From contig JBHLOC010000023.1 of the NCBI GenBank assembly GCA_048940925.1, positions 18,980 to 82,979 on the forward strand: a stretch of DNA of 64,000 nt, read 5' to 3'. Under the pieces are notes generated by a model, which saw only the letters and a list, made by a program, of their open reading frames with translations, searched no databases and was not told the origin of the DNA. Made by a program: the position numbers and the translations under genes. This stretch comes from Promethearchaeota archaeon (GTDB taxonomy: Archaea > Asgardarchaeota > Lokiarchaeia > Sigyniarchaeales > SOKP01). Numbering within the stretch: the stretch's first letter is position 1; every line of letters begins with the position of its first letter. Shown piece by piece: positions 38,855-42,523 of this stretch.

Positions 38855-39724
38855 TTATGATAAATCTTTAATAGCTTCTTTTAATATTGCTATTATTTTC
38901 TCACGATACATTGGTTCAATAGCAATCATACCATAAGTTTTAATACGACGTTTTTCACTCGACAATATTTTCTCACAAAATTCAGGAGTTAGTCTATTAG
39001 GTAAATCCTGTTTATTTGCAATACCTAAAACCATTTTGTCCTGAAAAAATTTATCCAACAAATCATGAATAATTTCTTTTGAACCATTAATATTTTCAAA
39101 AGTTGAATCCGTAACAAGTAGAGCAATATCGGAACCTGTCAATAAACTTTTCCACAAAGATCTAAATTGAGCTTGACCTGCAAAATCCCACAGCGTGACC
39201 GTTCTTTCAAATTCATCTCCCTCATAAGACACAATATCAGCTGTGATTGTTGGCACATATTCAAGATTAACATCTTTACCAGCTATAAGACGAGTTAATG
39301 TAGTTTTACCTACACCCCCAAATCCTATTATGGAGATTTTAATTGCTCCTAGTATTAAATTATCTAATTCTTTTTCAAATTCATAAAATATGGTTCTATT
39401 TCCAGCCCAACTTCCATCTTCTAATAATTTCCCATATTTCTCCATGAATTTGGCTCTTATACTGAGAATCTTAGAATTAACTAGAGAATCATCATCTTCT
39501 AAATCTGTACAAACAACAATAATGATGGTATCAATTATCGTATAGAAATATTTAAAATCTTCCGTTTGAGTACTCTTAATATCACTCTGGCTAATCTCTT
39601 TCATAAATCCTGAAAAAGCACTCAAAAAACCAGCTAATAAATCTCTATCTACCTCAGAGGTCCCATAATTTCTGAATAACAATGATTTTCCGTCTCTTGT
39701 TAAGATGTTAACATACTGTATCAA
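38855..39724 (-). CDS. Longin-like domain fused to a Ras-superfamily small GTPase
   Basis: N-terminal ILTRDGKSLL...DLLAGFLSAFSGF; GFGGVGKTT, PTI, WDFAGQ, ANKQD. Confidence 0.88.
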   Translation of the reverse strand: MIQYVNILTRDGKSLLFRNYGTSEVDRDLLAGFLSAFSGFMKEISQSDIKSTQTEDFKYFYTIIDTIIIVVCTDLEDDDSLVNSKILSIRAKFMEKYGKLLEDGSWAGNRTIFYEFEKELDNLILGAIKISIIGFGGVGKTTLTRLIAGKDVNLEYVPTITADIVSYEGDEFERTVTLWDFAGQAQFRSLWKSLLTGSDIALLVTDSTFENINGSKEIIHDLLDKFFQDKMVLGIANKQDLPNRLTPEFCEKILSSEKRRIKTYGMIAIEPMYREKIIAILKEAIKDLS

Positions 39725-39857: not shown

Positions 39858-40430
39858 ATGGAACCTGAAAAAACTGATGAGAAGCTTGATAATTTTGCTT
39901 CAGTGCTTGAAAAATTCGGGCTTGATATTATAACTAAAATGGGACAGACAAATTTAAAAATAAATATGCTCACTGATAAAATCGATGAATTAAGTAAAGC
40001 TACTCTCGATGTAAAAGCACTTTTACCTCAACTAACTAATGTAATCGAAAATCAAAAAATTTTGGAAGCTGAACTTGATTTAATTAGAACCTTAATTCAA
40101 AAATCAACTATAACATATCAACCGAATGAAATTGAAAGTGAGGGCGTAGAGAGGGATACTTCTGCAACTGATAAAAAAAAAGCGATTATCGATCAATTTC
40201 ACACCTTAGAAAAGTATATTGAAGAAAATGATGGCCCTGAACATGTGACAACAAGTTTAGCTAATATTAAAGAAGAGATTTTCGTATTTACTGGAGGTCA
40301 TAGAATTCTTTATGAAATTGGACAATTTACTAGTAAAATGAATGGTTTGGACACCCTTAATGATGATATAAAAAGGGAACTAAAAGAAAAAATCACATTC
40401 TGGATCAATAAATTGTCAGTAAAAGGATAA
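39858..40430 (+). CDS. Hypothetical coiled-coil protein located between two small-GTPase genes
   Basis: 190-aa ORF, heptad-rich N-terminal half, GAGAGG upstream. Confidence 0.7.
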   Translation: MEPEKTDEKLDNFASVLEKFGLDIITKMGQTNLKINMLTDKIDELSKATLDVKALLPQLTNVIENQKILEAELDLIRTLIQKSTITYQPNEIESEGVERDTSATDKKKAIIDQFHTLEKYIEENDGPEHVTTSLANIKEEIFVFTGGHRILYEIGQFTSKMNGLDTLNDDIKRELKEKITFWINKLSVKG

Positions 40431-40454
40431 AATAAAGTTATAAAAAAATTTCTT

Positions 40455-41066
40455 TTATCTTTCTTCCAATTTTGAAAGTAAGGTAAGTTCTCCTATTTTA
40501 TGAAATATTAGTTTAACATTATCTCCCGTTAATGCTGAGGTTTCGAAAAAAGGAGCGTTCAATTTCTGGCTAAGGTGTTCAGCCATTGGTAATATTATTT
40601 TTCTCTCGTCTTTTAAATCTATTTTATTGCCGACTAAGATTTTTGGAATACCTGAAAGTCCATATTTAACAGCTGTATTCCACCAATTATTTATATTCGA
40701 GAATGAACTAGACCTTGTAATATCATAAACTAACATCATCCCATCAGCTCCGTTAAAATATGGACGATGAAGCATGTAGAATTGCGGATAGACGCAATAG
40801 AGGAGAGCTCAATTACTTTGTCCAGCAATATCCCATACCATAAGAGTTATGTCCATATCTTTTCCCATATCGTTCTTTACTGTTACTTTCTCCTTGGTAA
40901 TGTTAACTCCAACTGTCGGAATATATTCATATTCAAACTTTTCAGCACAGAAAGTCTTCAGAAGACTCGTCTTACCCACAGCGGGATCTCCGATTACAAT
41001 AATCTTGTATATCATCTCAGAGGGTTTGTGGAACACTAATTCCTCTTCTTCTTTATCTGTAGTCAT
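40455..41066 (-). CDS. Rab-like small GTPase, two exons (41066-40818 and 40787-40455), 193 aa after splicing
   Basis: Exon 1 has G1 GDPAVGKT, G2 PTVG, G3 WDIAGQ. Exon 2, same frame, has PQFYMLHRPYFNGADG, LVYDIT, G4 GNKID, G5 ETSAL. A 30-nt insert with TGA separates them. Confidence 0.88.
40788..40817 (-). other. Putative 30-nt archaeal bulge-helix-bulge (BHB) intron in a protein-coding gene
   Basis: Insert AGUAAUUGAGCUCUCCUCUAUUGCGUCUAU. Central helix GGAC/GUCU, bulges AA^A and AU^C, inner helix GUAAU/AUUGC, outer helix AUUGC/GCAAU. Predicted cuts equal the boundaries that restore the GTPase. Confidence 0.82.
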
Positions 41067-41980: not shown

Positions 41981-42523
41981 TTAGCCATTCAGCTTCATTT
42001 GTTTTGAAATTTTAAATTTTGATGCTTTGTTGTCTTCTCGGGATATAAAATAAATAGTATTTAGAGAGAATGTGATTTCCTCCCAATTTTTCTGTAATTT
42101 GTTTATCAATTTATTTAATTTGTCTTTCCCCATAATCTGTCCAACGCTTAAATGAGGTCTAAATCCCTTTTTGAATTTATTTACATCATTACAATCAGGT
42201 ACAATATTTAGAATTTTTGCCTGTAAAGTTATGATAGATTCAATTGGTTCAGGATCAAGCCATAAAGTAAATCTTTGTCTTCCATGACCAAAGTAATCAA
42301 ATTTTCTTAAAGAAATCTTAAATTGTTTAATAGGTTCGCATATTTCTGAAAAAATCCTCTCCAGTTTCGAATATTCATTTTCAGGCGTAAATGGGTATAA
42401 TAGCGTTATATGTGGCATCCATCTATTGATTTGACGATCATATAGTTTGCGAATCTTTTGAATTGGTGCCCACTTTTCTATAGGAGGGATTATAACTACA
42501 GCAGAGTTATAGGATTTATTCAT
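41981..42523 (-). CDS. 2H phosphoesterase (2'-5' RNA ligase/LigT-like family)
   Basis: Two HxT/S motifs: PHITLLYPF and PHLSVG. Confidence 0.85.
   Translation of the reverse strand: MNKSYNSAVVIIPPIEKWAPIQKIRKLYDRQINRWMPHITLLYPFTPENEYSKLERIFSEICEPIKQFKISLRKFDYFGHGRQRFTLWLDPEPIESIITLQAKILNIVPDCNDVNKFKKGFRPHLSVGQIMGKDKLNKLINKLQKNWEEITFSLNTIYFISREDNKASKFKISKQMKLNG

What the first reader, a model, noticed from the sequence alone, without database searches (positions are those of the whole stretch)
40779..40832. Bulge-helix-bulge mRNA intron inside a Rab-like small GTPase gene of an Asgard-type archaeon
Seen: the ORFs 41066-40809 and 40775-40455 are in the same frame. The minus strand reads TGG GAT ATT GCT GGA CAA [AGT AAT TGA GCT CTC CTC TAT TGC GTC TAT] CCG CAA TTC TAC ATG. 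Removing the 30 bracketed nt (40817-40788) gives WDIAGQ-PQFYMLHRPYFNGADG, the same spacing as Rab WDTAGQ-ERFxxxxxxYYRGA and the neighbouring GTPase WDFAGQ-AQF. Independently, the RNA folds as: outer helix AUUGC(40829-25)/GCAAU(40785-81) with one U:C mismatch; 4-bp central helix GGAC/GUCU; 3-nt bulges AAA and AUC on opposite strands; inner helix GUAAU/AUUGC, then U:U and GAG/CUC closing a 5-nt loop. Established: archaeal EndA cuts after the second nucleotide of each 3-nt bulge and RtcB ligates. Here that gives AA^A and AU^C, exactly the boundaries required by the protein. BHB introns are typical of tRNA and rRNA; the main mRNA case I know is crenarchaeal cbf5. Inference: a eukaryotic-signature gene is expressed by tRNA-type mRNA splicing, conceptually like HAC1/XBP1 splicing, and other split Asgard genes may hide such introns.
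Basis: partly seen in the sequence, partly recalled or inferred. Interest (0 to 1): 0.96.

Follow-up and report, generated by a model that had tools for sequence, protein, structure and literature searches.

The report
tRNA-type mini-intron in Asgard Rab gene
A Rab-like GTPase gene of an Asgard archaeon is broken by a 30-base insert shaped like an archaeal tRNA intron, and comparison with 53 related genomes shows the gene only reads correctly once that insert is cut out of the mRNA, which published work documents inside the coding sequence of only one archaeal gene (cbf5).

Summary
A Ras/Rab-family GTPase gene on the minus strand (41066-40455) is interrupted by exactly 30 nt (40817-40788) carrying an in-frame TGA.

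[quoted passage not shown] The canonical cuts, after the second base of each bulge, fall exactly where the protein needs them.
- **Orthologues:** 41 in the same genus are open and lack the insert at exactly these boundaries (…WD[IV]AGQ|PQF…). Two (G052, G054) carry a homologous 30-nt insert at this site. G018 and G069 each carry a different 30-nt BHB insert elsewhere in the gene.
- **Selection:** carriers are under strong purifying selection (dN/dS 0.03-0.08, dS above 1.3).
- **Chance:** this motif at a fixed site occurs about 5e-6 per position in this genome.
- **Other genes:** the genome holds more 30-nt introns of the same build in EF-2-like, PurM-like and AMP-phosphorylase-like genes. In relatives, two of these keep their pairing through base changes.
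- **Machinery:** EndA (alpha and beta subunits) and RtcB are both encoded.
- **Missing:** RNA proof, because no RNA run holds this locus.

This scan has reported the same kind of intron before on other Asgard DNA and elsewhere in this genome. In the papers I could search, only cbf5 is documented. I put about 0.88 on a real EndA/RtcB-spliced mRNA intron.

The parts
40818..41066 (-). Exon 1 of the Rab-like GTPase: start ATG 41066-41064, G1 GDPAVGKT, switch I PTVG, G3 WDIAGQ. Its last base is 40818.
   Evidence: alignment with orthologues.
40788..40817 (-). The 30-nt BHB intron: 1 nt of bulge 1, a 23-nt hairpin, the 4-nt 3' strand of the central helix, and 2 nt of bulge 2. It holds an in-frame TGA at 40811-40809.
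   Evidence: Absent at exactly these boundaries in 41 congeneric orthologues. Homologous 30 nt at the same site in G052 and G054. Present in an independent assembly.
40455..40787 (-). Exon 2: begins CCG CAA TTC (PQFYMLHRPYF), carries G4 NKID and G5 ETSAL, and ends with the stop at 40457-40455.
40825..40829 (-). Outer helix h, 5' strand AUUGC (exon 1). U40824 is left unpaired opposite C40786.
   Evidence: pair list.
40820..40823 (-). Central 4-bp helix H, 5' strand GGAC (exon 1).
   Evidence: (three of four pairs invariant in three species; the closing pair is G-U here and G.A in G052 and G054).
40817..40819 (-). Bulge 1, AAA. The predicted 5' cut lies between 40818 and 40817.
   Evidence: The cut rule is from PMC2738675. 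The junction is fixed by the orthologues.
40794..40816 (-). Inner hairpin h': GUAAUUGAG, loop CUCUC, CUCUAUUGC (9 positions, 8 paired, one U-U; 5-nt loop).
   Evidence: The same 9+5+9 build is seen in the other 30-nt introns.
40790..40793 (-). Central helix H, 3' strand GUCU (intron).
40787..40789 (-). Bulge 2, AUC. The predicted 3' cut lies between 40788 and 40787.
   Evidence: Diverged insert-free homologues in metagenome contigs stop aligning exactly at 40787.
40781..40785 (-). Outer helix h, 3' strand GCAAU (exon 2).

Best explanation
The 30 nt at 40817-40788 are an archaeal bulge-helix-bulge intron inside the coding sequence of a Rab-like small GTPase. The gene is transcribed with the insert. 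In the pre-mRNA, exon and intron bases pair into an outer helix, a 4-bp central helix with a 3-nt bulge on each strand, and a 9-position inner hairpin with a 5-nt loop. The splicing endonuclease cuts after the second base of each bulge (AA^A and AU^C). In this genome it is a catalytic alpha subunit plus a non-catalytic beta subunit, the broad-specificity heterotetramer type. RtcB then joins the exons to give ...GGA CAA|CCG CAA..., that is WDIAGQ-PQF, so a normal 193-aa GTPase is made. Unspliced mRNA would yield only an 85-aa fragment. Shown here: the structure, the exact boundaries, the intact and selected exons, the machinery genes, and sister introns with conserved pairing. Inferred: the cleavage and ligation themselves.
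For: - **Unique boundaries.** 41 orthologues in the genus are open and read ...GGN CAR|CCN CAR TTY... with no insert. The BHB cut rule predicts exactly that deletion. The chance of such a motif at a fixed site is 5.1e-6.
- **Not an assembly error.** A contig from another study spans 40400-40906 with one difference.
- **Insert-free relatives.** Homologues at 83-87% nucleotide identity in the same metagenomes stop aligning at 40787 and continue as ...WDIAGQ. The closest database proteins (183/193 identical) are uninterrupted 193-aa Rab GTPases.
- **Same site in other species.** G052 and G054 carry a homologous 30-nt insert there. G018 and G069 have different 30-nt inserts at switch I and before K|IIVIGD. 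Each is a BHB whose canonical cuts restore the conserved protein.
- **Selection.** All spliced reading frames are open. dN/dS is 0.03-0.08 with dS above 1.3 between carriers. The intron differs at 20-33% of bases, against 40-47% at synonymous third positions.
- **Same build in other genes of this genome.** EF-2-like, PurM-like and AMP-phosphorylase-like genes carry 30-nt introns, and Pfam domains span them.
- **Pairing kept in relatives.** The EF-2-like intron is in 9 genomes, with 95% of stem cells paired and one G-C to A-U compensatory change. In the six PurM-like carriers aligned, 119 of 120 cells are paired, with C-G, U-G and U-A at one pair; slid controls give 26-56%.
- **Machinery.** EndA alpha and beta genes and RtcB are present.
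Against: - No RNA data exist for this locus, so neither the spliced junction nor a circular intron has been seen.
- The BHB is not the computed minimum-energy fold: -12.5 against -15.1 kcal/mol.
- The motif is relaxed next to the 3' bulge. There is a U.C mismatch here, and the closing pair of the central helix is G.A in G052 and G054.
- At this particular site, three species show no compensatory double change and a few pair-breaking changes (84% of cells paired).
- Genome-wide, loose BHB plus ORF-fusion hits are no more frequent than a mirrored decoy (8263 against 8321). The motif alone is therefore weak evidence; the case rests on its position.
Confidence: 0.88

Rival explanations
1. The gene is a recently inactivated pseudogene. 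The 30 nt are a dead insertion that happens to fold, and no functional protein is made.
For: There is an in-frame stop. Only 3 of 46 orthologues found in the genus have the insert at this site. The organism has about 95 Ras-family paralogues, so losing one might be tolerated.
Against: The exons have no other lesion. dN/dS is 0.03-0.08 with saturated dS between carriers G000, G052 and G054, which share a homologous insert. The insert is more conserved than synonymous sites. The same build interrupts an EF-2-like gene in 9 genomes and a PurM-like gene in at least 9 while those genes stay intact. The fixed-site motif chance is 5e-6.
Confidence: 0.04
2. The gene is a split GTPase. The two ORFs (85 aa holding G1-G3, and 106 aa starting at ATG 40775 holding G4-G5) are translated separately and assemble without covalent joining, and no RNA splicing occurs.
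For: The second ORF starts with an ATG four codons after the insert.
Against: That ATG is the conserved Met of PQFYMLHRPYF in all orthologues. In G018 and G069 the inserts sit at other sites, where the pieces would be very unequal. A split would remove PQFY from switch II. It also does not explain the BHB geometry or why the insert is always 30 nt.
Confidence: 0.03
3. Recoding happens at the ribosome. Either the TGA is read through or read as selenocysteine, giving a 10-residue insertion, or the ribosome hops over the hairpin as in phage T4 gene 60.
For: A stop codon followed by a stable hairpin resembles bypass and read-through signals (own knowledge).
Against: Sister introns carry TAA, TAG or two stops in a row. 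There are no matching take-off and landing codons at 40818 and 40787. A 10-residue insertion directly after DxxGQ is absent from all 41 open orthologues. The insert-encoded peptide is not conserved beyond what nucleotide identity explains.
Confidence: 0.03
4. The insert is an assembly or sequencing artefact.
For: The genome is a metagenome assembly in 90 contigs with 8.4% estimated contamination.
Against: A contig from a different study carries the identical insert. Two other species' assemblies carry a homologous insert at the same site.
Confidence: 0.01

Closest known systems
BHB intron in the cbf5 (pseudouridine synthase) pre-mRNA of Crenarchaeota (Watanabe 2002; Yokobori 2009, PMC2738675)
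   Same: It is a BHB intron inside a protein-coding sequence, with cuts between the second and third bulge bases. The motif is often relaxed and is handled by a heteromeric (alpha-beta) endonuclease. Presence is patchy among relatives, read as gain and loss.
   Different: The gene (a Rab-like eukaryotic-signature GTPase) and the phylum (Asgard) differ. It is one of several such introns in the same genome and gene family. The build is a stereotyped 30 nt (1 + 9/5/9 hairpin + 4 + 2). Three different insertion sites occur within one orthologue group. Splicing is not yet shown experimentally here.
Archaeal tRNA and rRNA BHB introns, including the heavily interrupted tRNA genes of Asgard archaea (PMC11291895; bioRxiv 10.64898/2026.10.13.758758)
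   Same: The same RNA motif and the same predicted enzymes (EndA, RtcB). Asgard genomes commonly have two EndA paralogues consistent with an (alpha-beta)2 enzyme.
   Different: The substrate is an mRNA coding region, so cut precision sets the reading frame. Those papers report tRNA introns only and do not mention protein-coding genes.
BHB intron in the 5' UTR of Haloferax volcanii HVO_1309 (PMC7714728)
   Same: An mRNA is processed at a BHB by the splicing endonuclease. It was shown in vitro and by circular-RNA sequencing.
   Different: That intron is 46 nt and lies in the untranslated leader, so it does not interrupt a reading frame.
HAC1/XBP1 unconventional mRNA splicing (Ire1 cleavage; ligation by Trl1 in yeast or RtcB in metazoa). 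From own knowledge, not tested here.
   Same: A non-spliceosomal endonuclease-plus-ligase removes a short intron from an mRNA and changes the reading frame outcome. RtcB is the ligase in metazoa.
   Different: The nuclease (Ire1) and the motif (twin stem-loops with 7-nt loops) differ, and that system is a regulated stress response. Nothing here indicates regulation.

Membership tests
Archaeal BHB (EndA/RtcB-spliced) intron | Two 3-nt bulges on opposite strands, each 3' of its strand of a 4-bp central helix | tested here: met
   GGAC/GUCU (one G-U) with bulges AAA and AUC, in the same orientation as tRNA BHBs. The fit is relaxed: a U.C mismatch adjoins the 3' bulge, and the conformer sits 2.6 kcal/mol above the minimum-energy fold.
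Archaeal BHB (EndA/RtcB-spliced) intron | Flanking helices h (exon-exon) and h' (intron) | tested here: met
   Outer helix of 5 bp, AUUGC/GCAAU. Inner stem with 8 of 9 positions paired around a 5-nt loop.
Archaeal BHB (EndA/RtcB-spliced) intron | Cutting after the second base of each bulge yields the functional product | tested here: met
   The predicted product ...WDIAGQ|PQFYMLHRPYF... equals the sequence of 41 uninterrupted orthologues. The boundaries cannot be slid.
Archaeal BHB (EndA/RtcB-spliced) intron | The genome encodes the splicing endonuclease and an RNA ligase | tested here: met
   Two PF01974 genes (102 and 70 bits). One keeps the Tyr/His/Lys catalytic residues and the other lacks Tyr and His (read by eye). 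RtcB scores 556 bits.
Archaeal BHB (EndA/RtcB-spliced) intron | Pairing conserved or covarying in homologous introns | tested here: inconclusive
   At this site, three species give 84% paired cells against 25-57% when slid, with no double changes. Sister introns of the same genome do show it: the EF-2-like intron has one compensatory pair, and the PurM-like intron has 119/120 cells paired with CG/UG/UA at one pair.
Archaeal BHB (EndA/RtcB-spliced) intron | Excision seen in RNA (spliced junction, circular intron) | not testable with these tools
   No RNA run holds the locus.
cbf5-type pre-mRNA intron (by descent) | Located in cbf5 at the catalytic Asp codon, in Desulfurococcales or Sulfolobales | tested here: not met
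   The host gene is a Ras-family GTPase in an Asgard genome. The mechanism is the same but the intron is not.
Ire1-type (HAC1/XBP1) splice site | Twin stem-loops with 7-nt loops cut at a conserved G | tested here: not met
   The junctions lie in 3-nt bulges of one continuous helix, not in 7-nt hairpin loops. Presence of Ire1 was not searched.
Ras/Rab small GTPase | G1-G5 motifs in order within one domain | tested here: met
   GDPAVGKT, PTVG, DIAGQ, NKID and ETSAL are all present after removing the 30 nt. Pfam Ras E 4e-42. Relatives are named Rab family GTPase.

The most novel reading that the evidence does not exclude
The window's intron is one member of a dynamic, genus-wide population of stereotyped 30-nt BHB mini-introns in protein-coding genes. 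They are repeatedly lost precisely, or spread laterally: carriers interleave with non-carriers on the EF-2-like gene tree. They sit preferentially in the G+C-richer codons of Gly/Ala-rich nucleotide-binding loops, which can supply the exon half of the motif in a 30% G+C genome. On this reading, endonuclease-based mRNA splicing is a routine step of gene expression in the closest archaeal relatives of eukaryotes, affecting eukaryotic-signature genes, and it may be open to regulation.
Probability: 0.55. Interest if true: 0.93.

Novelty: new member of a known kind. Interest (0 to 1): 0.85.

Why it matters
- **Published record.** Papers I could search document endonuclease-spliced introns inside archaeal coding sequences for cbf5 only (PMC2738675; PMC7714728 says so explicitly in 2020). 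The Asgard tRNA-intron papers do not mention protein genes.
- **What is new here.** A eukaryotic-signature Rab-like GTPase needs tRNA-type splicing to be expressed. The same genus carries such introns at three sites of this gene, and in translation-factor and metabolic genes.
- **Annotation.** Asgard gene calls that report two fragments or a pseudogene are wrong at these places, and BHB-aware gene finding is needed.
- **Evolution.** The closest archaeal relatives of eukaryotes tolerate and turn over introns in mRNAs using an RNA cut-and-ligate pathway that eukaryotes still use for tRNA and for XBP1/HAC1.
- **Testability.** The 30-nt uniform build and the presence/absence polymorphism give a tractable system for asking how such introns arise and are lost.

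Tried and rejected
- **RNA evidence.** No RNA holder was listed for the locus, so expression and splicing could not be examined.
- **Protein database.** A search of 5.8 billion proteins found no product identical to the spliced protein. The best hit is 183/193 identical, from uninterrupted relatives. This says nothing either way about splicing.
- **Loose genome-wide scan.** BHB plus fusion of two open frames of at least 60 codons gave 8263 hits against 8321 for a mirrored decoy. Loose motifs are noise from adjacent genes. Only strict, in-frame, short hits stand out: 5 against 0, and 20 against 7. At L = 30 the count was 15 against 8.
- **tRNA intron lengths.** ARAGORN gave heterogeneous and unreliable values (9-89 nt), so no link to the 30-nt class could be made.
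- **Minimum-energy folding.** It does not return the BHB for G000, G052 or G054.
- **Covariation at the window's own site.** None was found with three sequences.
- **Candidate at G000 C56:49670-49699.** Its best stem is out of register with the central helix and no Pfam domain spans it. I left it as doubtful.
- **Selenocysteine, read-through and T4-like hopping.** Considered and rejected; the reasons are given under the rival explanations.

Full report
**What is in the sequence.**
On the minus strand, ORFs 41066-40809 and 40775-40455 lie in one frame. With the single TGA (40811-40809) read through, the stretch is one Ras-family domain (Pfam PF00071, E 4e-42, residues 21-192). The break comes straight after the G3 motif WDIAGQ. 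Removing 40817-40788 (30 nt) gives WDIAGQ-PQFYMLHRPYF.

- outer helix AUUGC/GCAAU, followed by a U.C mismatch;
- central helix GGAC/GUCU, with one G-U pair;
- bulges AAA and AUC, each 3' of its strand of the central helix, as in tRNA BHBs;
- an inner stem of nine positions, with one U-U, closing a 5-nt loop.

RNAfold does not choose this conformer. The minimum-energy fold pairs GGA with UCC (-15.1 kcal/mol, z -1.76). The BHB conformer scores -12.5.

**The organism.**
The window lies in a 4.8-Mb, 29.7% G+C genome. It has 95 Ras-family matches, five actin-family genes (best 441 bits) and two Snf7 genes. The closest database proteins are named Rab family GTPase of Promethearchaeota or Lokiarchaeota. 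It is an Asgard archaeon.

**Is the insert real, and where exactly does it lie?**
A contig from a different study spans 40400-40906 with one difference, so this is not an assembly error.

I searched all 53 other genomes of the genus and found 45 orthologues. Forty-one are open, 30 nt shorter, and read ...GGN CAR|CCN CAR TTY.... That fixes the boundaries uniquely, because sliding by one base changes the protein. These boundaries are the ones given by the BHB rule of cutting between the second and third bulge bases (PMC2738675).

Diverged insert-free homologues in the same metagenomes stop aligning at 40787 and continue as ...WDIAGQ. The closest proteins among 5.8 billion (183/193 identical) are uninterrupted 193-aa proteins. 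A 30-nt motif of this quality occurs at 5.1e-6 of positions in this genome.

**Other introns in the same orthologue group.**
- G052 and G054 are more distant than several insert-free species, at 77-78% protein identity. They carry a homologous 30-nt insert at this very site. The TGA is kept, and 6-10 of 30 bases differ.
- G018, the closest relative at 91%, lacks it. It has a different 30-nt insert in switch I: GCGU UA^C, a 9-bp stem with a 5-nt loop, then GCGU AA^A. This restores PTVGV|NITK.
- G069 has a third: UUUC AA^G, an 8/9 stem with a 5-nt loop, then GAAA AC^A. This restores FK|IIVIGD.

All have the same build: 1 nt + 23-nt hairpin (9+5+9) + 4 nt + 2 nt.

**The gene is alive.**
After removing the inserts, every reading frame is open and all G motifs are intact. 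dN/dS is 0.03-0.08 with dS above 1.3, including between G000, G052 and G054, which share the insert. The intron differs at 20-33% of bases, against 40-47% at synonymous third positions.

At this site three species keep 84% of pairs (25-57% when the partners are slid). They show no compensatory double change, and the closing pair of the central helix is G.A in G052 and G054. In those two species a synonymous GCT to GCG change in the exon closes the outer helix.

**The same kind of intron elsewhere in the genome.**
A scan for BHB motifs whose removal fuses two long open frames is dominated by noise at loose settings (8263 hits against 8321 for a mirrored decoy). Strict, in-frame, short hits do exceed the decoy (5 against 0, and 20 against 7). 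They include 30-nt introns in three genes, with Pfam domains spanning the inserts:
- an EF-2-like GTPase, placed before DEEQERGITI;
- a PurM/AIRS-like gene;
- an AMP/thymidine-phosphorylase-like gene, where removal restores DKHS|T|GG.

*EF-2-like intron.* It is present in 9 of about 40 congeners and is always 30 nt. It has a G-C to A-U compensatory change and several U-G wobbles, the loop varies freely, and 95% of stem cells are paired against 29-45% when slid. The exon half of the central helix (TCAG) is fixed in carriers but varies in non-carriers. A second 30-nt intron splits AH|IDHGK in G018 and G054. On the gene tree, carriers interleave with non-carriers. That implies either repeated precise loss or lateral spread.

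*PurM-like intron.* At least nine genomes carry it. In the six carriers aligned, 119 of 120 cells pair, with C-G, U-G and U-A at one pair; slid controls give 26-56%.

**Machinery.**
There are two EndA genes. One keeps the catalytic Tyr/His/Lys and the other lacks Tyr and His (read by eye). That fits the alpha-beta heterotetramer that cleaves relaxed BHBs and the cbf5 intron (PMC2738675, PMC5829648 abstract). RtcB is present.

**Mechanism.**
Inferred: the pre-mRNA folds into the BHB. EndA cuts at 40818/40817 and at 40788/40787. RtcB joins the exons and probably circularises the 30-nt intron. Only spliced mRNA encodes the GTPase.

Also inferred: the exon half of the motif needs some G/C pairs. 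In a 30% G+C genome these are found mostly in Gly/Ala/Pro codons, which would explain why these introns sit in nucleotide-binding loops.

**Rivals.**
Four rival readings fit worse: pseudogene; split protein; read-through, selenocysteine or ribosomal hopping; and artefact. Their evidence is set out under the rival explanations.

**Literature.**
In the library, coding-region BHB splicing is documented for cbf5 only (PMC2738675). PMC7714728 adds a 5' UTR intron in Haloferax and states that cbf5 was the only other example of such an mRNA intron. The Asgard tRNA-intron papers (PMC11291895; bioRxiv 10.64898/2026.10.13.758758) do not mention protein-coding genes.

**Earlier notes of this scan.**
The scan's notes report many introns of this kind in other Asgard genomes and in this genome. 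I used them as leads only. I had found the EF-2-like and AMP-phosphorylase-like introns independently before reading them.

**Verdict.**
RNA-level proof is still missing.

Noticed in passing
L004 (G018:C24), 30 nt within L004:1501-2109 (+ strand): The closest orthologue of the window's GTPase lacks the G3-site intron. It has its own 30-nt BHB intron with an in-frame TAG in switch I: GCGU UA^C, a 9-bp stem with a 5-nt loop, then GCGU AA^A. This restores PTVGV|NITK. Its outer helix is weak (3 of 7).
   Followed up: yes
L057 (G069:C17:96300-97060, minus strand): A third intron position in the same orthologue group: 30 nt holding TGA and TAG between FK and IIVIGD, just before the P-loop strand (UUUC AA^G ... 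GAAA AC^A).
   Followed up: partly
G000 C32:27895-27924 (-), loci L034/L037: A 30-nt BHB intron in an EF-2-like GTPase, before DEEQERGITI. It is shared by 9 congeners and shows one compensatory change. A second 30-nt intron splits AH|IDHGK in G018 and G054. Carriers are scattered over the gene tree.
   Followed up: yes
G000 C30:66095-66124 (+), loci L033/L058: A 30-nt BHB intron (ACGU AA^A ... GCGU AU^C, outer helix of 7 bp) in a PurM/AIRS-like gene, carried by at least 9 congeners. In the six aligned, 119/120 structure cells are paired, with CG/UG/UA at one pair.
   Followed up: yes
G000 C64:13177-13206 (-), locus L035: A 30-nt BHB intron with TAG TAA in an AMP/thymidine-phosphorylase-like gene. 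Removal restores the DKHS|T|GG motif. Orthologues were not compared.
   Followed up: partly
G000 C68:60948-61562 (-): One open frame encodes the C-terminal half of a small GTPase (WDIAGQERF ... NKND ... ETSAL) followed by an N-terminal half (GEAAVGKS ... TVG). It is either a circularly permuted GTPase or fused fragments.
   Followed up: no
window 38855-39724 (-): The neighbouring 289-aa protein has a Roc/Arf/Ras-type GTPase domain (residues 129-240, WDFAGQAQF) behind an N-terminal region of about 125 aa with no Pfam match.
   Followed up: no
window 41981-42523 (-): A 2'-5' RNA ligase / 2H phosphoesterase superfamily gene (PF13563, E 2e-34) lies about 0.9 kb from the intron-bearing gene. Such enzymes act on 2',3'-cyclic phosphate RNA ends, which EndA produces. 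This is probably coincidence, and it is not in the same operon, because a plus-strand HAD hydrolase gene lies between them.
   Followed up: no
All introns listed above: The intron sites cluster in Gly/Ala-rich nucleotide-binding or active-site loops (G1, switch I, G3, DKHSTGG). The exon half of each BHB uses the G/C of those codons. This could be a requirement for a stable motif in a 30% G+C genome, or a detection bias.
   Followed up: no
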